A stretch of 64,000 nucleotides of DNA, taken from a virus. Positions 42,372 through 51,880 of the stretch are shown one piece after another; within the stretch, counting starts at the first letter, position 1; each line of letters opens with the position of its first letter. The stretch covers positions 1 through 64,000 of the IMG/VR virus record IMGVR_UViG_3300032897_000003; one strand, 5' to 3'. Under the pieces are notes generated by a model. It made no database searches. It was not told the DNA's origin and was given only the letters and a program-made list of their open reading frames with translations. The position numbers and the translations under genes are program-made.

Positions 42372-45050
42372 GTGCAGTACCAAGCAGATCTTGACAAGAC
42401 CCCACCGCATGACCGAGCCGCAGAGCTCGCCGTGATCGGGTGCGCTCTGGTCACGCCAGAGGCTATCGTAGAGGTCGGAGAGCTGTACCCGACCGACTTT
42501 TTCTCGCAGGAATGTCAGGAGGCTTGGGGGGCGATCCAAGGCCTCGTCGGTGAAAGCTTGGCAGTAGATATCGTGACCGTTGGACAGCGGCTGAAGGACT
42601 CCGGGTGCGCGGATCGGTTTGAGGGCGGTTGGGCAACCTGGGCGGTTTCGGCGAGCTCGAATGTTCCAACCGTGCACAACGTGAAGCATTACGCAGACAT
42701 CGTCCGTAACAAGGCTATCTTGCGCAAGCTGATCGCAGTGGCCATCGAGACGATGTCGAGAAGCTATTCAGGGGCGAAGGCCGAGGACGTGTTGCTCGAC
42801 CTCACTTCAGCCGTGTCGGAGCTTCAAACCAGGGCCACGAGCAAAGAGCCTGCGCTGCTGAAAGACGCCATTCCAGTCGCCATCGAAACCATCAGCATGA
42901 AGTGCGACCCGAGAAATCACAACGTGCTGGTGCGGACAGGAATAGCCCCCTTGGACGCACACATCGGAGGGTTGGCACCGGAGGAAATGGTTGTTGTCGC
43001 GGCCAGGCCTGGAGTCGGGAAAACGAGCTGGGCGAATGGAGTGGCTGAGTACGCGGCTGGAGTTTGCGGGATACCGACTCTGTACATCTCCGTCGAGATG
43101 TCCCAGCAGCAGCAAATCGAGAGGTTCATTTCGATGGAGAGCGGGATCCCTGCGACGGCATTCCGCTCGGGAAGAATCGACGGGAAGACGCTGACCCTGG
43201 ACCATCACAAGAAGGTCCTGCAAGTAGGCGAGCGGCTGATGAAGATGCCGCTCTGGATAGACGCCGAGTCGATGACCCTCGGGCGTATCTTGAGCACCTC
43301 TCGACGGTGGCACGCAAAGCACGCGGTTGCCTCCGGCATGAAGATTTGTCTCATCGTCATCGACTACCTGCAGCTCATAGCAATGCAGGCGCAGGAGAAG
43401 CCTATCCCACGCGAGCAGCAGGTAGCGATGATTTCGAAGTCCTGCAAGTGGCTGGCGAAGACTCTGAAGTGCCCGGTGCTCGTGTGCAGCCAGCTCAATC
43501 GCAAGGTGGAGGAGCGAGGTGGGGAGCCAGTGTTGTCGGACTTGAGGGAGTGCCTTACCGGCGAAACGCGCATCTGGGACGCAGCTACGGGAGGGACGGT
43601 CTCCGTGCGCGATTTGTCAGCCGGCGGAAATGCTCTCGTGTGGGGTATTCGCGACCGGTACCAGATCGGATCCGCAATGGTGAGTAAGGCCTGGTCGACA
43701 GGCGTAAAGCCGGTGTACCGAGTGCAAACCGCCAGTGGCCGGGTGATACGAGCAACCGGGAATCATCCGTTCCTGACGGTTAGTGGATGGACGAAACTTG
43801 CCGAGGTGGCGCTCGGAGAGCGTATCGCTGTACCACGCTTCATCCCGCAGCATGCGTGTAAGTATAACCCGCACACCGTCGACCAGCTTCGTCTGCTCGG
43901 GTTCCTGATTTCCGACGGACACTATGGAAAGAACAGGTCGGTCGGATACGTGAAGGGAGACCACGTCCTTGTCGACGAGGTCCGGAGGATAGCGAAGTCC
44001 TCCTTTGGTATCGACGCCAAAGATCATCCCTGCCATGGAATCGCACAGCAGATCGAGCTCACCACGAAGCAAGCTGGCCCGGGGTGCAATCCGGTGATCA
44101 ACTGGCTGAAGGCGCTTGGCGTTCACGGTCAGTTGGGTCCGAAAAAGCGGATACCAGAATCGGTGTTTACCTGCGACAATGACCATGTTGCGGAATTTCT
44201 GGGTGCACTTTGGTCAGGCGATGGCTCTGTGGTTCAGAGGAAGACGGGGGGATGGGTACTCAAGTTCGCATCGACCAGCAGAGGACTCCTGCAAGACATC
44301 CAGCGCATGCTGTTGCGCTTCGGAATCGTGAGCGTGTTGGGTAATCCAAGACGCAACAGCAAGTCGACGATGGACATAGCCACTGTCACGATCGGAGATG
44401 GGGATGCAATTGCCGCATTTGCAAGGCAGATTAGGCTCCATGGTGAGAAGCAGCGAAAACTGGAGATTGCTGCCCAATGGGTTGCCAGCGAGCGCGAGCA
44501 TGAAAATGCCAGGGCAGATCGCATGCCAATCGAAATCACTGCTCATGTTTCGGCATTGAAAGAGAAGCGTGGATGGTCATGGGAAGAACTAGGATATCGC
44601 TGTCAGAAAAAGGAGATGAGCCGCGCTTCTCTGGGCAAAGTCGCTCGTAAGCTCGACGACGACAAACTGCTTGCCCTTTCCGATAGCGACATCCTGTGGG
44701 ATCAGGTCGTGGCAATTTCCCCGGACGGCAACGAAGAAGTGTTCGATGTCTCAGTGCCAGCCATGGGGAACTTTGTCGCCGATGGCTTTTTTGTCCATAA
44801 CAGCGGCGCCATAGAGCAAGATGCAGACATCGTGTTCTTTCTGCACCGGTCGGAGGATGAACAGAGCACCGTCGAAGGCGAAGTCATCTCGTGGCTCATC
44901 GCCGGAAAGAACCGCAACGGCCCGGTCGGAAAGTACAAGATGAAATTCGTTGGCGGGCGGACGAAGTTCTTCGGTGCCGAGCAGGATGACGACGGGGCCC
45001 GGGACGCCATGGGCGATCCTGCCGATGATCCACATTGGAGCGACAGATGA
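42372..45050 (+). CDS. dnaB: Replicative helicase DnaB with intein
   Basis: AARPGVGKT, IVIDYLQL, SQLNR, SDLRE|intein|SGAIEQDAD, KNRNGP. Confidence 0.95.
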   Translation: MQYQADLDKTPPHDRAAELAVIGCALVTPEAIVEVGELYPTDFFSQECQEAWGAIQGLVGESLAVDIVTVGQRLKDSGCADRFEGGWATWAVSASSNVPTVHNVKHYADIVRNKAILRKLIAVAIETMSRSYSGAKAEDVLLDLTSAVSELQTRATSKEPALLKDAIPVAIETISMKCDPRNHNVLVRTGIAPLDAHIGGLAPEEMVVVAARPGVGKTSWANGVAEYAAGVCGIPTLYISVEMSQQQQIERFISMESGIPATAFRSGRIDGKTLTLDHHKKVLQVGERLMKMPLWIDAESMTLGRILSTSRRWHAKHAVASGMKICLIVIDYLQLIAMQAQEKPIPREQQVAMISKSCKWLAKTLKCPVLVCSQLNRKVEERGGEPVLSDLRECLTGETRIWDAATGGTVSVRDLSAGGNALVWGIRDRYQIGSAMVSKAWSTGVKPVYRVQTASGRVIRATGNHPFLTVSGWTKLAEVALGERIAVPRFIPQHACKYNPHTVDQLRLLGFLISDGHYGKNRSVGYVKGDHVLVDEVRRIAKSSFGIDAKDHPCHGIAQQIELTTKQAGPGCNPVINWLKALGVHGQLGPKKRIPESVFTCDNDHVAEFLGALWSGDGSVVQRKTGGWVLKFASTSRGLLQDIQRMLLRFGIVSVLGNPRRNSKSTMDIATVTIGDGDAIAAFARQIRLHGEKQRKLEIAAQWVASEREHENARADRMPIEITAHVSALKEKRGWSWEELGYRCQKKEMSRASLGKVARKLDDDKLLALSDSDILWDQVVAISPDGNEEVFDVSVPAMGNFVADGFFVHNSGAIEQDADIVFFLHRSEDEQSTVEGEVISWLIAGKNRNGPVGKYKMKFVGGRTKFFGAEQDDDGARDAMGDPADDPHWSDR
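43551..44801 (+). mobile_element. Intein with LAGLIDADG homing endonuclease (417 aa)
   Basis: CLTGET...ATGNHPF...LLGFLISDG...FLGALWSGDG...FFVHN|S. Confidence 0.95.
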
Positions 45051-45698: not shown

Positions 45699-46361
45699 AT
45701 GCGACGACCGAAACCACCTACGAGCATCAACAACGTCAACGTCAGCCCGACAGCACCAGCGGACAAGCCCGGCGGAGAAAACCCGATCGAGGTTACGATC
45801 CGTCCGCTGAACCTGCAGCGCACGACCATCAAGATCCGCGGCATCAGCACGCTGATCATGCACGCCTGGAGTCAGAAGGCCATCAAGATGATCGAGGACA
45901 AGCAGCAGAAGAAAGCCACGGGGCCGCGGAAGGCGAAGGACCCGCAGGCCGACTTCGAGAGCGCGCGATATCGCATCGACAAGAACACGGACGGGATCCC
46001 GGCCATCGCGCTGAAAGCGTGCGCTGTCGAGGCCGGCGTGTTGCTCGGGCTGAAGAAGACGAACTTGCGTAAGTCCTTCTTCGTTGGGCCCGACGGCGAG
46101 GAGCTCATCCCCATCATCGTGGCCGAAGAGCCAGCGATGAGGCGGGACATGGTGCGAGTCGGGATGGGCACCAGCGACGTGCGGTACCGACCGGAGTACA
46201 AGGACTGGAGCTGCGAGATTCCGATCGAGTTCAACGCCGACGCGATCTCGGCCGACCAGCTCGTCAACCTGTTCGACCAGGGCGGGTACTCCGTCGGGGT
46301 CGGCGAGTGGCGGCCCGAAAAGGACGGGACGCACGGAAGATTCAGGGTGGTAAGCGAATAG
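45699..46361 (+). CDS. Stand-alone RAMP/Cas7-like protein
   Basis: Beta1 IKIRGISTLIMH, GIPAIALK (RAMP IP..SLK-like), C-terminal Gly-rich loop GGYSVGVGEWRPEKDGTHGRF. Confidence 0.7.
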   Translation: MRRPKPPTSINNVNVSPTAPADKPGGENPIEVTIRPLNLQRTTIKIRGISTLIMHAWSQKAIKMIEDKQQKKATGPRKAKDPQADFESARYRIDKNTDGIPAIALKACAVEAGVLLGLKKTNLRKSFFVGPDGEELIPIIVAEEPAMRRDMVRVGMGTSDVRYRPEYKDWSCEIPIEFNADAISADQLVNLFDQGGYSVGVGEWRPEKDGTHGRFRVVSE

Positions 46362-46367
46362 CTGCCC

Positions 46368-46982
46368 ATGCTGAACCACCTGGCACAGTTGCCGCGCCCT
46401 TCCCTCGACCTGACAGAAGGAGACTGTGAGATCGTCCGCAAGACGCTCGAGCAGTTGAAGTCGGAAGGGCGTGCGACACCAGATGCATTCCTCACCGCAG
46501 CGGAGCCGGAGGACAGTCCGCTCCATAAGTTTTTCGAGTGGGACAACGACCGGGCTGCGCACGAGCACCGCCTACTGCAGGCGCGCCAGCTCGTTCGCAC
46601 GGTTGTTCTTCGTCCCGTCCGCGTGGAGACGACCAGGAAAACCATCAGCGTTCGCATAAATCCAAGCGTGCGAGAGGAGGATGAGGACGACGAGCGACCG
46701 GAGCCAAGACTGCCTCTTCCGACCCCGATACCAGAAACGCAGGTGACAAGAGGGAAAATCAAGGAGCTGGCGGATCGAATCGAGGATGCGCTCAAAGATG
46801 CCCGTGGAACCATGGACATCTTCGACGAGATGAGAACGCTGCGCGAGATCTTGGCAGACCTACGGCAAAAAGCACCCTGGGAGGGAAAGCGTTGCCCGAA
46901 GTGCAGCTTGCTCGGGCATGCTCCAGGCTCACGCTTCTGCACCCCGGTGAACCAGTGTCTAGGAAGAAAGGCGATCGACTGA
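46368..46982 (+). CDS. Accessory protein between the RAMP-like gene and the array
   Basis: TPDAFL..A...SPLHKFFEWD..AA..HRL.QARQL; C-terminal CPKC...C. Confidence 0.7.
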   Translation: MLNHLAQLPRPSLDLTEGDCEIVRKTLEQLKSEGRATPDAFLTAAEPEDSPLHKFFEWDNDRAAHEHRLLQARQLVRTVVLRPVRVETTRKTISVRINPSVREEDEDDERPEPRLPLPTPIPETQVTRGKIKELADRIEDALKDARGTMDIFDEMRTLREILADLRQKAPWEGKRCPKCSLLGHAPGSRFCTPVNQCLGRKAID

Positions 46983-46985
46983 CAT

Positions 46986-47499
46986 GGCAGTAAGGGTTGG
47001 CTGGGCTTGTCTTGGATCGGCCGTCAGGTACTGGCTAGTCTGGTCGTGGCTGCGCAGGCAGTCATGGCTGGTCGGGGCGTCGATTGGCGTGGCCGTCGGG
47101 TTTGGGAGCGGCCAGGAAAGGCGGGTCCAGGCCAGGCAGTATGGGCTGGTCATGGTCGGGACATGAAGGCTTGGCTAGGCAGGCAAGGCGAGGTACGTCG
47201 GATCATGGGTAGGAACGGCAGGCGTCGAATGGCAAGGATGGGCCTCGGTGGCAAGGCCTGGCAGTCAGGGCTTGTCTGCGCCAGGAAGGGAATGGTTTGG
47301 ACAGGCAGGGCATGGATCGGCAGGAGCGGCCAGGATTTGTTGGGACAGGCGGGTCAAGTCGTGGAGTGGCAGGCATGGCTAGTCTCGGCGACGACAGGAG
47401 GGGATGGGCAGGAAGTGCTAGGCTTGGTTTGTACCGGATCGGAGGGGCAGGCGGGGCTAGTTGTGGCCCGGAACGAAGCGGAAAGGCAGGGCAGGCATG
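46986..47499 (+). ncRNA. Array of 12 putative guide units: GGC(A/C) + (G[G/T]H-NN)6-11
   Basis: Hand-parsed 5-nt periodicity; unit starts 46986, 47019, 47057, 47091, 47135, 47178, 47217, 47260, 47319, 47368, 47407, 47446. Confidence 0.8.
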
Positions 47500-47904
47500 G
47501 ACGTAGAGCAAATTGACTTGAACCACATCAAGAGAGCGGTGTTCGAGCTCGTCTGGAAGGAAGATGGGCGAGTCACGCTGTTCATCAACAAACACGACAG
47601 CCGCGTGTTCCCTCAACCGGGACCGGGGATTCTTTCTTCAGGCAGCAAGAATGATCGGCATCTCAAGGCCGAAAGAGATGGGATTTCAGGAACGATATCC
47701 GTCCGTTGGAGAAGTGAGAGTGGTGGAATCTCAAGCACGGCCAGCGAAGGGATCCCGCCAGTCGAGGTATTTCTTCCGTGGGAGTGCTTGGCCGGCATCT
47801 CGCTGGGCAATCCGAATGCTCCAGTGTTCGCTGGCGTTTGGGCTCTGTGGGAGGGCTTCACCTCGGACAATGACGTCGAGGTCCCGACGAAACAGATGTG
47901 CTGA
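47497..47904 (+). CDS. Possible SspB-like (ClpXP adaptor) protein
   Basis: DGISGTIS...VEVFLPWECLAGI resembles the SspB core. Confidence 0.4.
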   Translation: MDVEQIDLNHIKRAVFELVWKEDGRVTLFINKHDSRVFPQPGPGILSSGSKNDRHLKAERDGISGTISVRWRSESGGISSTASEGIPPVEVFLPWECLAGISLGNPNAPVFAGVWALWEGFTSDNDVEVPTKQMC

Positions 47905-48084: not shown

Positions 48085-48588
48085 ATGCCACAGGCGCAGC
48101 TCTTTGCCGAGGAGCCCAGAGCGGTGTTCAGTGACGACCGTCGCTACCGGTATCGACTTTGGCGAACCGTCGAGGACGTTGCGATCCTGAAGCGCAAGGC
48201 GGTGATGATCGGGCTCAACCCGAGCATTGCCGACGAACACGTGTTGGACCCGACTCTGAAGAGGTTCTTGTCCTTCTGCCGACTCTGGGGCTGCTCGCGT
48301 ATGGAGGTGGTCAACCTGTTCGCGCTCGTCAGCACTGATCCGTCCGGGCTGTACACGTGCGCTGATCCGGTCGGACCTGGGAACGACTTGGCCATCGACG
48401 TAGCTGTGGTCGATGCAGACGTCATTGTCGCATGCTGGGGAGCCCATCCAATGGCTGCGAAGCGGGCATCCGACGTGCTCAGTATGCTCGGTACCAGGCA
48501 GCTGATGTGCTTCGGGCGCAACCACGACGGCTCTCCCAAGCATCCGCTCTACCTGCCGAAGACGGCCGAGCTGTCGGTGTATGCATGA
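48085..48588 (+). CDS. DUF1643 family protein
   Basis: YRYRLWR, IGLNPS.AD, DPT, NLFA..STDP, ACWG, PKHPLY. Confidence 0.85.
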   Translation: MPQAQLFAEEPRAVFSDDRRYRYRLWRTVEDVAILKRKAVMIGLNPSIADEHVLDPTLKRFLSFCRLWGCSRMEVVNLFALVSTDPSGLYTCADPVGPGNDLAIDVAVVDADVIVACWGAHPMAAKRASDVLSMLGTRQLMCFGRNHDGSPKHPLYLPKTAELSVYA

Positions 48589-48944
48589 CCACGCTAGATT
48601 CGGTACTGGAAGTGCTGCGCGGGATGCGCATCATGTTCTCGGACGAGAAGGAGCTACAGGACGCGGTCGAGAAGGCGATGACGACCGCGAGTATCCCTCA
48701 CCAGCGAGAGGCTATCCTCGGGCCTCGCGACCGGATCGACTTCATGGCGGACGGGGGGATCGGAATCGAGTGCAAGATCGACCACAGCCGGGCGGACTTG
48801 CTGAGACAGCTGTTCCGCTACAGCAAACAGCCACAGGTGCGCGTCTTGGTTGTGGTGCTAGGGAAGCTGCGACTGTCCGCGCTCCCTACCGAGATGAACA
48901 ACATCCCCATCCACGTGGTCAACCTCGTGAGGGCCTTCGTTTGA
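48585..48944 (+). CDS. PD-(D/E)XK-like small nuclease
   Basis: RIDF....IGIECK, QLFRY. Confidence 0.6.
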   Translation: MTTLDSVLEVLRGMRIMFSDEKELQDAVEKAMTTASIPHQREAILGPRDRIDFMADGGIGIECKIDHSRADLLRQLFRYSKQPQVRVLVVVLGKLRLSALPTEMNNIPIHVVNLVRAFV

Positions 48945-51880
48945 GCGGGCAAGTCTCTCTATTCTCGAAAGTAGCCGAACCTGCGGCTAAGTCTGCACAT
49001 GCTGGGGTGGTCAGAGCGGTACGAATCTACGGGAAGGTGATCTACAACGTGGCCAAGCGGGCCTGGGAGATCGACTGCGAGCCGCAGGTAAGGCAGCGTC
49101 TGAAACGGGTGTTTCCGCGGATCAAGGCGGGAGCGGTCGACCTTTGCCTCGAGGACAACATCGACGCCGGGCGGGACCTGGCGTGGTTTCTCGATCGCTA
49201 TCCAATGGAGATCTCACCGGCAGACATGCGGCTCTTGCGCGAGCGAGAGACCGAGCACCGCGTGCTGGTTGAGGACATCGGACGGATCATGCAGTCGGAC
49301 TATGTGCCGACGGACATCACGTTGGCAATACCGCTGCGCAACTACCAGGCGCAGGCAGTCGATCTGACGAAGCGGGTGTTCGGGCTGCTCGATGCGGATG
49401 ATCTCGGAGTCGGGAAGACAGCCATTGGAATCGGATTGCTGGCCGATCCAAGGGCGCGTCCGGCGCTGGTCGTTACGTTGACCCACCTACCCGGGCAGTG
49501 GAAGCGCGAGATCGAACGGTTCGCCCCCGGACTCAACGTGCACATCCTGAAGAAGGGAACACCGTACAAGTTCGAGATCCGCGGCGGGCAGGAGTATTTC
49601 CCCGACGTCATCGTGACCAACTACCACAAGCTGGTCGGGTGGGCCGAAGAGCTACACGGCAAAGTCCAGACGGTGATCTTCGACGAGGCGCACGAGCTGA
49701 GGCGCAGCACGAGTGAGAAATACAGCGCTGCCAAGCGGGTCGCAGCAAAGTCGCGGTATAGGCTTGGGCTCACGGCAACCCCGATCTTCAACTTCGGTGG
49801 CGAGTTCTTCAATATCGCGGACGTGCTCCGCCCAGGAGATCTCGGAACGTGGGAGGAATTCTGCACGGAGTGGTGCAGTGGCTTCGCCGACAAGACGAAG
49901 GCCACCATTACGAAGCCGAAGGAGTTCGGGGCATACGTGCGCGAAGCTGGTTTGATGATCCGGCGTACGCGCAAAGAGGTTGGGCGCGAGCTGCCGCCGC
50001 TTACCATCTGCCCGCAGCTCGTCGATGCCGACCTGTTCTACTTGGACGAGATCGAGACCGAGGCCACCGCGCTGGCCAAGATCGTCTTGTCGGGAGGGGC
50101 TAACCCGTTCGAACAGCTGCGAGCAAGCCAGGAGCTGTCATGGAAGCTGCGCCAGGCCACTGGCGTCGCGAAGGCTCCTGCAGTAGCCGAGTTCACCCGC
50201 ATGCTTGTGGAGGGGGAAGAATCGGTCGTGCTGTTCGGATGGCACCGTGAGGTGTACCGCATCTGGGCGGAGCGGCTGGCCGACCTCGAACCGGTGTTTT
50301 TCACGGGAGAGGAGACTCCAGGGCAGAAGGAGGCAGCCGCGCAGGCCTTCATCGGTAAGAAAACCAAGTTGCTCATCATGAGCCTGCGGGCCGGGGCAGG
50401 CATCGATGGCCTGCAGAAAGCCTGCAGGACAGCCGTGTACGGTGAGATGGACTGGTCCCCGGCCGTGCACGAGCAGTGCCTCTCGAGCGATACCGAGATA
50501 TTGACGCCAGCCGGATTTCTCGGGGTTGACGCCGTAAAAGAGGGTGATGAGGTGGCTGCGTTCGACGCTGCGACCGGAGAGATTCGATGGGTTGCCGCGA
50601 CGAGCAAGGTGGATCGAACTCTCGGCGACGACGAACGGATGTACAGGTGCTACTCGAAGAAGGTCGATTTCCTGGTGACCGGGGATCACCGAATGGTCGT
50701 GAGGCGAAAAACCAGAACGACGGCAGGGGTTGGCAGGTCCCAGTGGGAGTTCGACATCGCTAGAAACATCGCGGGGTCGGCAAGACGCTTCATCCCTACG
50801 AGCGGGGTTCAGTCATCCGACGGTGTTCCTCTGAGTGACTATGAGCTAAGGCTGCTGGGATGGTTTGTGACCGACGGACATTTCAGTGGGCATCAATTGA
50901 TCTTCTATCAGGCTGAACAACAGCCGTGGAATGAAGACCTCGTCGAGGTGCTCAACGGATGCGGCATCGGGTGGACGCTCTTTAAGCGACGAGTCGTGCG
51001 GCCAAGCGGGGTCACAGTGATGAACTGGTACCACGTACCAAAGGGTAATTGCCCTCGGTGGTCAGAAGAGGAGCTAGACCAACTTCTGGCGGTGACAGGA
51101 CTCCCCGAGAGACTGGCTCTGGCGAAGAAGATGGGCAGAACAGAGTATGCGCTATACAAAAAACAGAGAAAGTGGGCACAAGGAGAACGCCCGGTCCCGG
51201 TCAAAAAGCGAGCTGGGCGTGGATATGAAACCTTGGAAAAATACCTCGATAAGAACCTCAGTCCACACCTCGACTCGATGACGAGAGAGCAATTGCGGGC
51301 TTTCCTTCGCGGAGTCAATATGGGCGATGGTGCGAAAGCGATGAAACTCAGCTACAAGATAACGAGCACGAACCGCTTGTTCTTCGACCGCCTCCAATCG
51401 CTCTGTGTGCGCCGTGGATTCTCTGCCAATTTGTCGACGCGCAACGCAGTCACCAAAGCAGGGAAGCCGATTTATGATCTGTGGATTGCCGACAAGGCAG
51501 AGGCGTCAGTCGCGCGATCAGGTAAACCCGGAGGTTTCGCGGAATGTGCGACCGAGTCTAAAGTTAGGGTGTGGTGCCTCAGCAATGAGCTCGGCACTCT
51601 AGTCACGCGCAGGAATGGGAAGGTCGCGATCGTCGGCAATTGCACTGGTCGTCTGTTGCGTGACGGACAACCGGATCCGGTGTTTGCCTATTACCTGCTG
51701 GCAGACTGTGGGAGCGACCCGGTCATCTCGGACGTGCTCGGGGTGAAGAGGGCGCAGCTGGAGGGGATTCGCGACCCGAGCGGAAATCTCATCGAGATGG
51801 CCCAAACTGATCCGGAACGGGTGAAGCGCTTGGCGGAGGCCTACTTAAGGCAGAGAAAAACGGCACCAGAGCGACAATAA
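48941..51880 (+). CDS. SNF2-family helicase with intein
   Basis: LRNYQ, ADDLGVGKT, FDEAH, LTATP, GAGIDGLQ, HEQ|intein|CTGRLLRDGQ. Confidence 0.9.
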   Translation: MSGQVSLFSKVAEPAAKSAHAGVVRAVRIYGKVIYNVAKRAWEIDCEPQVRQRLKRVFPRIKAGAVDLCLEDNIDAGRDLAWFLDRYPMEISPADMRLLRERETEHRVLVEDIGRIMQSDYVPTDITLAIPLRNYQAQAVDLTKRVFGLLDADDLGVGKTAIGIGLLADPRARPALVVTLTHLPGQWKREIERFAPGLNVHILKKGTPYKFEIRGGQEYFPDVIVTNYHKLVGWAEELHGKVQTVIFDEAHELRRSTSEKYSAAKRVAAKSRYRLGLTATPIFNFGGEFFNIADVLRPGDLGTWEEFCTEWCSGFADKTKATITKPKEFGAYVREAGLMIRRTRKEVGRELPPLTICPQLVDADLFYLDEIETEATALAKIVLSGGANPFEQLRASQELSWKLRQATGVAKAPAVAEFTRMLVEGEESVVLFGWHREVYRIWAERLADLEPVFFTGEETPGQKEAAAQAFIGKKTKLLIMSLRAGAGIDGLQKACRTAVYGEMDWSPAVHEQCLSSDTEILTPAGFLGVDAVKEGDEVAAFDAATGEIRWVAATSKVDRTLGDDERMYRCYSKKVDFLVTGDHRMVVRRKTRTTAGVGRSQWEFDIARNIAGSARRFIPTSGVQSSDGVPLSDYELRLLGWFVTDGHFSGHQLIFYQAEQQPWNEDLVEVLNGCGIGWTLFKRRVVRPSGVTVMNWYHVPKGNCPRWSEEELDQLLAVTGLPERLALAKKMGRTEYALYKKQRKWAQGERPVPVKKRAGRGYETLEKYLDKNLSPHLDSMTREQLRAFLRGVNMGDGAKAMKLSYKITSTNRLFFDRLQSLCVRRGFSANLSTRNAVTKAGKPIYDLWIADKAEASVARSGKPGGFAECATESKVRVWCLSNELGTLVTRRNGKVAIVGNCTGRLLRDGQPDPVFAYYLLADCGSDPVISDVLGVKRAQLEGIRDPSGNLIEMAQTDPERVKRLAEAYLRQRKTAPERQ
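50477..51640 (+). mobile_element. Intein with LAGLIDADG endonuclease (388 aa)
   Basis: CLSSDTEILT...VTGDH...LLGWFVTDG...FLRGVNMGDG...AIVGN|C. Confidence 0.9.

What the first reader, a model, noticed from the sequence alone, without database searches (positions are those of the whole stretch)
46986..47499. Array grammar: 12 units of 33-59 nt delimited by a 4-nt GGC(A/C) phase break
Hand parse. U3 ggca gtcat ggctg gtcgg ggcgt cgatt ggcgt; U4 ggcc gtcgg gtttg ggagc ggcca ggaaa ggcgg gtcca ggcca; U8 ggca gtcag ggctt gtctg cgcca ggaag ggaat ggttt ggaca ggcag ggcat ggatc; U10 ggca ggcat ggcta gtctc ggcga cgaca ggagg ggatg; U12 ggca ggcgg ggcta gttgt ggccc ggaac gaagc ggaaa ggcag. Lengths are 33, 38, 34, 44, 43, 39, 43, 59, 49, 39, 39, 44, i.e. 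4+5n, with four units one base short. The first three bases of each pentamer are mostly GGH or GTH (occasionally CGH/TGH), while the last two vary freely and no two units match. This is unlike a slippage microsatellite. The tetramer may mark processing sites that release individual guides (inference).
Basis: seen in the sequence. Interest (0 to 1): 0.9.

Follow-up and report, generated by a model that had tools for sequence, protein, structure and literature searches.

The report
Phage VIPR guide-RNA array, staggered type
The five-base repeat tract is real and is the guide-RNA array of a VIPR system, a CRISPR-related phage silencer first described in 2026; two of its guides spell conserved motifs of a bacterial anti-phage enzyme gene and of a transposase gene.

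Summary
Window 46983-47496 is a non-coding, G-rich tract with a 4.85-nt period, about ten times the window's background. It consists of G-G/T-H triplets alternating with free dinucleotides.

It is not new. It is the 'staggered' guide (vrRNA) array of a VIPR system, described in 2026 bioRxiv preprints, and this scan has already reported such arrays on many other genomes.

Evidence gathered here:
- The gene two places upstream (45699-46361) is a Vipr protein. It matches the solved SUSP1 Vipr, aligns to SUSP2 Vipr at 98% profile probability, and has a Cas7/Csm3 fold.
- A conserved accessory gene (46368-46982) lies between it and the array.
- About 70 of 80 related phage loci carry the same kind of array.

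- Read with the published one-base-skip code, the guide at 47323-47371 exactly spells TTFPCHNCA, the zinc-site motif of AvcD-type anti-phage dCTP deaminases (13 of 13 database hits).
- The guide at 47264-47322 spells EILCKILCHNL in an IS5-like DDE transposase family (34 of 37 hits).
- In both, the match stops at the GGCA step, so the tetramer is punctuation and not code.

Verdict: a new member of a known kind.

The parts
45699..46361 (+). vipr gene: 220-aa Cas7-like RAMP protein that coats the guide RNA, one protomer per 5-nt repeat
   Evidence: phmmer hit to PDB 36pp_D 'SUSP1 Vipr protein', E 2.3e-7, over the G-loop (GVGEWRP here, GVGDWRP in SUSP1). hhalign of the family profile A2 against SUSP2 Vipr: probability 98%, E 2.8e-13, 166 aligned columns; SUSP His17 aligns with H55; SUSP1 Arg138 and Asp177/Trp178/Arg179 align with R164 and E203/W204/R205. 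AlphaFold2 mean pLDDT 87.5. Best Foldseek PDB matches are Csm3/Cas7 chains, 8do6_E at E 1.1e-5. PHROG phrog_4652.
46368..46982 (+). vipr-accessory (vap-like) gene, 204 aa, with a lineage-specific C-terminal Cys/His tail
   Evidence: Homologues sit directly downstream of vipr in 90 of 108 related loci. Conserved core SPLH..FEWDD..AA..YRL.QAR (alignment A3). PHROG phrog_15946. Not related to SUSP2 vap1 (hhalign probability 0.1%). No PDB fold match. Atlas neighbours are viral hypothetical proteins.
46983..47496 (+). staggered vrRNA array: about 108 G-K-H/NN pentamers cut into guides by 4-nt steps (mostly GGCA)
   Evidence: The same kind of array lies next to vipr in about 70 of 80 related IMG/VR loci, always G-rich on the gene strand.
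47264..47322 (+). guide of 11 coding repeats plus terminal GGCA; NN = AG TT TG CA AG AT TT CA AG AT TC; its antisense reading spells EILCKILCHNL
   Evidence: The one-skip pattern of 10 NN gave 37 metagenome hits. 34 lie in one family, in frame, with the skipped base at the wobble position, as 25 distinct target sequences. 21 of the 34 also match the first NN. The proteins are DDE_Tnp_1 transposases (Pfam E 1e-18 to 1e-25), three of the six tested with an N-terminal SWIM finger; the nearest NCBIfam model is IS5 family, below its cut-off.
47323..47371 (+). guide of 9 coding repeats plus terminal GGCA; NN = GC CA TT TG CA GG AA GT GT; its antisense reading spells TTFPCHNCA
   Evidence: The one-skip pattern gave 13 IMG/VR hits, all in frame in the PCxxC zinc motif of long deaminase proteins, 500-634 aa (ORF calls) or 501-650 codons (open frames) where complete, as 11 distinct target sequences. 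Two proteins tested hit PADLOC PDLC02373 'dCTPase' at E 4.7e-169 and 2e-152, and Pfam dCMP_cyt_deam_1.
47095..47138 (+). guide of 8 coding repeats plus GGCA; NN = GG TG GC CA AA GG CA CA; target not found
   Evidence: Parse. The 13 IMG/VR hits are heterogeneous and share no gene or frame.
47450..47493 (+). guide of 8 coding repeats plus GGCA; NN = GG TA GT CC AC GC AA AG; target not found
   Evidence: Parse. One IMG/VR hit without the terminal AG and none with it.
47182..47220 (+). guide of 7 coding repeats plus GGCA; NN = AA GA AC GG AT TA AC; not searched in public collections (too few specified bases)
47372..47449 (+). two guides of 7 coding repeats each plus GGCA (47372-47410 and 47411-47449); not searched in public collections
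46986..47094 (+). leading, more degenerate units (short units at 46986-47022; 7-repeat units at 47023-47056 and 47061-47094, ending in CGCA and GGCC)

Best explanation
The tract is the guide-RNA (vrRNA) array of a VIPR system carried by a 78.9-kb phage that is probably virulent. The module is vipr (45699-46361), then a vap-like accessory gene (46368-46982), then the array (46983-47496).

Mechanism, taken from the published SUSP1 and P. fulva work and inferred here by homology:
- The array is transcribed with or just after the two genes.
- Vipr protomers polymerise along the RNA, one per five bases. Each hides one G-G-Y-like triplet and exposes the two variable bases.
- The exposed dinucleotides pair with double-stranded DNA while skipping every third target base, and the bound filament blocks transcription.

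Shown here from sequence:
- The array is cut into about 11 guides of 5-11 coding repeats by a 4-nt step, mostly GGCA. The step shifts the repeat register by one base.
- For two guides the decoded target match runs over every full pentamer from one step to the next, and the dinucleotide of the step repeat is not part of it. The step therefore acts as punctuation. It probably works by breaking the Vipr filament register, so that each guide becomes a separate particle (inferred).
- One guide is aimed at the DNA encoding the zinc-binding PCHNC motif of AvcD-type anti-phage dCTP deaminases. Another is aimed at a conserved C-terminal helix of an IS5-like DDE transposase. Neither gene family is present in the phage itself.
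For: Periodicity, entropy and parse.

Vipr identity: PDB sequence hit to SUSP1 Vipr; profile match to SUSP2 Vipr at 98% with the RNA-contact residues His, Arg and (D/E)-W-R aligned; Cas7/Csm3 fold.

Conserved module: the vap-like gene follows vipr in 90 of 108 loci. A 4.9-nt periodic, G-skewed array lies next to vipr in about 70 of 80 IMG/VR loci; most of the loci with no clear array end close downstream of vipr. In those relatives the triplet is G 87%, G 78%, C/T 86%, the NN entropies are 1.94 and 1.99 bits, GGCA makes up 442 of 789 four-base steps, and units most often hold 10-11 repeats.

Published system: GGY/NN vrRNAs, one-base skip, staggered arrays with 1-nt overlap.

Targets: 13 of 13 hits in AvcD-type deaminases and 34 of 37 in one transposase family. 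All are in frame, with variable bases at the skipped (wobble) positions.

No self-target: guide matches in the phage's own 78.9 kb do not exceed shuffled guides. The genome holds no deaminase or DDE_Tnp_1 gene.
Against: No RNA or protein data exist for this phage, so transcription, processing at GGCA and RNP formation are inferred.

Only 6 of the 20 triplets in the two target-matched guides are canonical GGY (8 GGA, 4 GTC, 1 TGT, 1 CGC). In SUSP1 the Y pocket is described as excluding purines. This Vipr must therefore tolerate a looser triplet, or those repeats bind weakly.

Two other long guides gave no recognisable target, and the 7-repeat guides could not be searched.

The accessory gene is unrelated to SUSP2 vap1, and its equivalence to any published vap2-6 could not be checked.

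AvcD is reported to be activated after translation, when its RNA antitoxin decays (PMC10511110 abstract). Transcriptional silencing by a virulent phage would not remove enzyme that is already made.
Confidence: 0.93

Rival explanations
1. The tract is protein-coding: either the 169-aa ORF 47007-47516 or a stop-codon read-through extension of the upstream gene. The ORF is in the upstream gene's frame, right after that gene's TGA.
For: One frame is open across the whole tract and is in phase with gene 46368-46982.
Against: Period-3 power is among the lowest in the window. The ORF has no Pfam or PHROG family. Arrays rebuilt by shuffling the same pentamers are open as far or further in 11% of trials (median 126 codons). 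23 of 81 relatives' arrays are also more than 90% open, while others such as L002 have stops in all frames. A 5-nt repeat cycles through all three frames, so it cannot conserve a protein.
Confidence: 0.02
2. The tract is a DNA-level element of the replication module. It would be a G-rich, strand-asymmetric (GGNNN)n tract that forms G-quadruplexes or R-loops, serving as an origin or recombination hot spot, like immunoglobulin switch-region pentamers.
For: It lies among replication genes (DnaB, SNF2 helicase), has strong GC skew and has GG every 5 nt.
Against: It does not explain why the two spacer bases are near-random while the triplet is fixed. It does not explain why the array always travels with a Cas7-like gene across phyla, whatever the neighbouring genes. 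It does not explain why two units decode in frame to conserved motifs of foreign genes.
Confidence: 0.03
3. The tract is an RNA decoy or regulatory leader that wraps a ring-shaped RNA-binding protein reading spaced triplets, as TRAP reads 11 (G/U)AG triplets in the trp leader. This was my reading before the literature check.
For: Triplet plus 2-nt spacer. In clean relatives there are about 11 triplets per 54-59 nt between GGCAGGC junctions.
Against: The neighbouring protein is a Cas7-like RAMP that matches a solved Vipr. Vipr forms an open helical filament with 5-6 subunits per turn, not an 11-mer ring. Unit length varies from 5 to 12 repeats in this window. The spacers carry target information.
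Confidence: 0.02

Closest known systems
VIPR systems with 'staggered' vrRNA arrays (bioRxiv 10.64898/2026.04.26.720920, Results and fig. S18 legend)
   Same: A Vipr gene, an adjacent accessory gene and a long tail-less array of GGY-like/NN pentamers, in which neighbouring guides overlap by one base (here the G of GGCA|G). Phage-borne, with no self-targets.
   Different: The triplet is looser here (G, then G or T, then C, A or T; A in 33% against 10% in relatives). Guides are shorter and more uneven (5-11 coding repeats, against a mode of 10-11). The accessory protein carries an extra Cys/His tail. The paper did not confirm staggered arrays by RNA sequencing. In the text held here it gives no targets for staggered arrays. 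I could not assign one of its seven types because the figures and data files are not held.
Type II VIPR of Escherichia phages SUSP1/SUSP2 and the Pseudomonas fulva prophage (same paper; structures in bioRxiv 10.64898/2026.04.26.720927; PDB 36pp)
   Same: Homologous Vipr with the same RNA-contact residues. The 5-nt repeat code and the one-base skip aligned to codon wobble positions also fit here.
   Different: SUSP vrRNAs are separate RNAs of about 100 nt, each with an invariant 3' tail and pseudoknot. Here there are no tails, only GGCA steps. SUSP2 vap1 is unrelated to this accessory gene. The published natural targets are satellites, prophage regulators and other VIPR loci. A defence-enzyme gene or an IS transposase is not mentioned in the three papers' text.
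Class 1 CRISPR effectors (Cas7/Csm3 filaments on crRNA)
   Same: RAMP fold, one protomer per fixed number of guide bases, thumb-induced periodic base flipping.
   Different: No CRISPR repeats or spacers and no other cas genes. The guide information is non-contiguous (2 of every 5 bases). No adaptation module.
TRAP-trp leader RNA (Bacillus; from my own knowledge)
   Same: A protein multimer reading triplets separated by 2-3 free bases.
   Different: Unrelated protein, ring and not filament, spacers carry no information. Rejected as an explanation.

Membership tests
VIPR system | A Vipr protein: minimal RAMP with RRM core, glycine-rich loop and thumb | tested here: met
   PDB 36pp_D 'SUSP1 Vipr protein', E 2.3e-7. 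hhalign against SUSP2 Vipr: 98%, E 2.8e-13 over 166 columns. AlphaFold2 pLDDT 87.5 with best fold matches Csm3/Cas7.
VIPR system | Residues that hold the GG of each repeat (SUSP1 H17, R138, D177, W178) and R179 of the Y pocket | tested here: met
   They align with H55, R164, E203 (a conservative D-to-E change), W204 and R205. All are invariant or nearly so in 27 family members. The DNA-contact residues K33, R39, K82 and K88 were not examined.
VIPR system | vrRNA made of tandem pentamers with a conserved GGY triplet and hypervariable NN, at least four repeats, typically 9-16 per guide | tested here: met
   108 pentamers with entropies 0.53/1.07/1.38 against 1.95/1.93 bits. The triplet is relaxed to G-K-H. 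The first paper itself lists relaxed repeat forms.
VIPR system | An adjacent vipr-accessory (vap) gene | tested here: inconclusive
   A conserved gene follows vipr in 90 of 108 loci, but it is unrelated to SUSP2 vap1. Sequences of vap2-6 are not available here.
VIPR system | Non-contiguous recognition: NN pairs with the target, one base skipped, usually the codon wobble base | tested here: met
   Two guides give 13 of 13 and 34 of 37 exact one-skip matches, in frame in single protein families, with variable bases at every skipped position. Other skip lengths were tested only on the phage's own genome and the fetched loci, where none stood out.
VIPR system | Guides do not target their own genome | tested here: met
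   Best matches in the 78.9-kb genome are no better than for shuffled guides.
VIPR system | vrRNAs are expressed, processed and co-purify with Vipr; the complex represses transcription | not testable with these tools
   No RNA run was listed for this sequence.
Staggered vrRNA array (fig. S18 of the first VIPR paper) | Consecutive guides share one base, so the end of one marks the start of the next; no tails or ribozymes between them | tested here: met
   GGCA followed by G of the next triplet at 11 of 17 steps here, and at 442 of 789 steps in relatives. No Rfam family, including hammerhead, in the region. Processing itself is untested.
CRISPR-Cas | Direct repeats of 20-40 nt with unique spacers, plus cas genes | tested here: not met
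   No tandem repeats by TRF. No cas families beside the Cas7-like fold.

The most novel reading that the evidence does not exclude
The most novel reading has two parts.

First, this apparently virulent phage uses VIPR partly as an RNA-guided anti-defence weapon. One guide would silence AvcD-type anti-phage dCTP deaminase genes, in the host or in resident prophages, by binding the DNA that encodes the enzyme's zinc site. Another guide would immobilise an IS5-like transposon. Neither target class is mentioned in the VIPR papers held here.

Second, in staggered arrays the GGCA repeat is pure punctuation: it ends the Vipr filament and contributes nothing to target choice. The Vipr of this clade would also accept G-K-H triplets and not strictly GGY.
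Probability: 0.4. Interest if true: 0.6.

Novelty: new member of a known kind. Interest (0 to 1): 0.4.

Why it matters
The kind of system is already published, so this locus matters mainly as a well-documented example of the least-studied array type. That type, the staggered array, was not confirmed by RNA sequencing in the original paper.

Three points from this locus could guide experiments:
- The target match of two guides begins right after one GGCA step and stops right before the next. This gives a sequence-based definition of guide boundaries in staggered arrays.
- Guides whose triplets are mostly GGA or GTC still encode perfect targets. The triplet requirement of this Vipr clade is therefore probably looser than in SUSP1.
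- One guide points at a bacterial immune gene (AvcD-type dCTP deaminase). If it is functional, VIPR would be used for counter-defence as well as for conflicts between mobile elements.

Tried and rejected
- Tandem Repeats Finder found nothing.
- Rfam at a permissive threshold gave only chance-level hits outside the tract.
- blastn of 6 kb against the phage collection gave only a weak helicase match to a Tunturiibacter phage, so there is no close isolate.
- The downstream 135-aa gene has no relatives in IMG/VR or in the fetched loci.
- My first readings, held before the literature check, are now rivals or rejected: TRAP-like ring binding, a G-quadruplex/R-loop origin, and primase sites.
- The coding reading of the 169-aa ORF is rejected.
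- Target searches that found nothing: the phage's own genome under skip 0-3; 381 relatives' guides against 775 kb of related loci under skip 0-3, where no rule beat shuffled guides; relatives' guides against the 13 deaminase loci; shared guides between this phage and its relatives.
- IMG/VR pattern scans without a target: the 12-repeat guide with 18 specified bases gave 3 chance-like hits; guide 47095 gave 13 heterogeneous hits; guide 47450 gave 0 hits with the terminal AG and 1 without.
- RNA evidence: none was listed by the look-up of sequencing runs.
- The genome search does not draw 'relatives' for a virus record.
- In a sample of 401 genomes of the phylum of locus L088 (an Acidobacteriaceae MAG), 2 matched the transposase guide with one mismatch. 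This is too few to name a host.
- Host assignment from Vipr homologues failed. The best genomic hits are 35-45% identical and spread over Rhizobium, Planctomycetota, Acidobacteriaceae and Clostridia.
- The accessory protein has no Pfam family, no PDB fold match and only viral hypothetical neighbours in the Atlas.
- The E. coli-type promoter and terminator scan gave nothing useful.
- No terminal inverted repeats were found around four of the target transposase genes.
- The RNA fold of the array is only marginally more stable than shuffles (z -2.5).
- Supplementary files of the VIPR paper are not held, so no type I-VII assignment was possible.
- Complex prediction was not used because no protein-protein binding claim is made.

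Full report
**What is there**

The window is the first 64 kb of a 78.9-kb IMG/VR virus record rated 99% complete. The listed ORFs that match known families all lie on the + strand. The finding lies in the replication module:
- DnaB helicase with an intein, 42372-45050
- two small genes
- a 220-aa gene, 45699-46361 (PHROG phrog_4652)
- a 204-aa gene, 46368-46982 (phrog_15946)
- the tract
- a 135-aa orphan gene starting at 47497
- a DUF1643 gene
- an SNF2 helicase with an intein

The tract fills the 514-nt gap 46983-47496 exactly.

**Check of the observation**

The periodicity is real and strong.
- Summed spectral power in 300-nt windows peaks at period 4.85 nt with a value of 16. The window median is 1.6 and the best value elsewhere is 4.1. 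Period-3 power, the mark of coding sequence, is near its minimum.
- Autocorrelation peaks at lags 5 and 10, then drifts to 24, 29, 34 and 39. This is what a 5-nt repeat does when it drops one base every few repeats.
- A dynamic-programming parse gives 108 triplets and 17 four-base steps, 11 of them GGCA.
- Entropy per pentamer position is 0.53, 1.07 and 1.38 bits for the triplet and 1.95 and 1.93 bits for the last two bases.
- Tandem Repeats Finder and Rfam find nothing.

The open 169-aa frame across the tract is a by-product of G-richness. Arrays rebuilt from the same pentamers in random order are open as far or further in 11% of trials. 23 of 81 relatives' arrays are likewise open, while others are full of stops.

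**Relatives**

A 33%-identical homologue of the 204-aa protein led to locus L002. There a 235-nt tract of the same kind lies between the homologues of the two upstream genes and has stops in all frames.

A search with the 220-aa protein returned 80 IMG/VR loci. About 70 have a 4.9-nt periodic tract within about 1 kb of that gene, always G-rich on the gene strand. Most of the loci with no clear tract end close downstream of the gene.

In the cleaner relatives the tract is almost pure GGC-NN with GGCAGGC junctions every 54-59 nt. Across all relatives:
- the triplet is G 87%, G 78%, C/T 86%
- the NN entropies are 1.94 and 1.99 bits
- GGCA makes up 442 of 789 steps
- units most often hold 10-11 repeats
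- the two repeats after a junction have the best-kept GGC, and the first free base after the junction is A or G in 86%

**Identification**

Before the literature check I read this as an RNA wrapping a multimeric protein that reads spaced triplets. A note search and an independent full-text search both pointed to VIPR systems. I then checked the claim myself.

The first paper (10.64898/2026.04.26.720920) describes:
- Vipr, a minimal Cas7-like RAMP
- vrRNAs of 9-16 GGY/NN repeats
- recognition of double-stranded DNA by the NN bases with one target base skipped, usually the codon wobble base
- transcriptional silencing of competing mobile elements
- several array architectures, including 'staggered arrays' whose guides overlap by one base

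The structure paper (10.64898/2026.04.26.720927) shows one protomer per repeat in a helical filament and names the residues that hold G1, G2 and Y3.

The 220-aa protein matches the PDB chain 'SUSP1 Vipr protein' at E 2.3e-7. Its family profile aligns to SUSP2 Vipr at 98% probability over 166 columns. SUSP His17 aligns with H55. SUSP1 Arg138 and Asp177/Trp178/Arg179 align with R164 and E203/W204/R205. All are invariant or nearly so in 27 homologues. Its AlphaFold2 model (pLDDT 87.5) matches Csm3/Cas7 chains best.

The 204-aa gene is a conserved partner, directly after vipr in 90 of 108 loci. It is unrelated to SUSP2 vap1 and has no recognisable fold.

The SUSP2 locus has separate vrRNAs with tails. 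This locus has none. It is therefore not the characterised type II but the staggered-array kind. I could not assign a numbered type because the figures and data files are not held.

**What the guides say**

Decoding each unit as NN-x-NN-x... gave no better-than-chance match in the phage's own genome. This agrees with the published absence of self-targets.

Public collections could be scanned only for exact patterns, so only the longer guides were informative.

*Guide 47323-47371* (nine coding repeats)
- It gave 13 IMG/VR hits, against 3, 0, 13 heterogeneous and 1 for the other patterns tried there.
- All 13 lie in one gene family. Read on the opposite strand they spell TTFPCHNCA, with the skipped base at every wobble position. 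There are 11 distinct target sequences.
- The genes encode 500-634-aa proteins (ORF calls; open frames 501-650 codons) where complete. Two of them match the PADLOC defence model PDLC02373 ('dCTPase') at E 4.7e-169 and 2e-152 and contain the Pfam deaminase zinc-binding domain. This is the AvcD-type anti-phage dCTP deaminase; PMC10511110 describes AvcD.

*Guide 47264-47322* (eleven coding repeats)
- It gave 37 metagenome hits. 34 are in one family spelling EILCKILCHNL, again in frame, as 25 distinct sequences. 21 of the 34 also match the first dinucleotide, which was left out of the pattern.
- These are 340-460-aa DDE_Tnp_1 transposases, three of the six tested with an N-terminal SWIM finger, nearest to IS5-family models.

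The phage has neither gene family. It also has no tyrosine or serine recombinase, so it is probably virulent.

*Guide boundaries.* In both families the dinucleotide of the terminal GGCA(G) repeat never matches (0 of 13 and 0 of 34). The code therefore runs from the first pentamer after one step to the last full pentamer before the next.

*Loose triplets.* Only 6 of the 20 triplets in these two guides are GGY. The rest are 8 GGA, 4 GTC, 1 TGT and 1 CGC. Loose triplets thus occur in guides that still carry intact target information.

**How it most likely works**

Shown: the sequence grammar, the homology of the protein, the conserved module, and the decoded matches.

Inferred from the published systems: transcription of the array, coating by Vipr with one protomer per pentamer, DNA binding with one skipped base, and silencing.

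My own inference: the 4-nt step shifts the register by one base, so a filament cannot run on from one guide into the next. This would define separate particles and leave the junction open to trimming.

The biological reading is plausible but untested: one guide against a defence enzyme gene and one against a transposon. One caveat applies. AvcD is activated after translation when its RNA antitoxin decays, so silencing during a lytic infection might come too late.

**Novelty and score**

The three VIPR papers held here do not mention deaminase or anti-defence targets. Earlier notes of this scan report similar readings on other genomes, and the system itself is published. This is a new member of a known kind. 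I score interest at 0.4 for the boundary rule, the loose triplet and the defence-gene target.

Noticed in passing
window 42372-45050 and 48581-51880: Both the DnaB-like helicase and the SNF2-family helicase carry inteins with LAGLIDADG homing-endonuclease domains (Pfam Intein_splicing, LAGLIDADG_3, Hint_2).
   Followed up: no
window 46368-46982, residues about 170-204: The accessory protein has a C-terminal extension with a Cys-x2-Cys...His...Cys pattern, like a zinc knuckle. It is absent from all 26 aligned homologues.
   Followed up: partly
window 47057-47075, 47135-47155, 47260-47278, 47368-47386, 47446-47464: About half of the units start alike (GGCA, G-G/T-C-A-T/G, GGCT-N, GTC/GTT). Within-array identity of the first free base is 0.50 and 0.44 in the first two repeats, against about 0.25 later. 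Relatives show a weaker bias. This could be a 5' handle or a trace of unit duplication.
   Followed up: partly
window 47497-47904: The 135-aa gene that starts inside the last array unit has no relative in IMG/VR or in 108 related loci, and no family.
   Followed up: partly
L004, L005, L009, L010, L012, L018, L042, L066: Several related phages carry two or three separate periodic arrays, on both sides of vipr. In L012 the upstream array ends in a strong hairpin that looks like a terminator.
   Followed up: no
L162:2731-4005, L171:3907-5289, L172:11487-12722: The transposase family hit by the 12-repeat guide combines an N-terminal SWIM zinc finger with a DDE_Tnp_1 domain and scores below the cut-off of every NCBIfam IS model. 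No terminal inverted repeats were found around four copies.
   Followed up: partly
window 48085-48588: A DUF1643 gene (E 3.6e-35) sits just downstream of the VIPR module.
   Followed up: no
L083-L110: Vipr homologues of this clade, 32-45% identical, occur in genomes of Rhizobium, Martelella, Planctomycetota, Acidobacteriaceae, Desulfosporosinus and many gut Clostridia. This is a very wide host range for one protein family.
   Followed up: no
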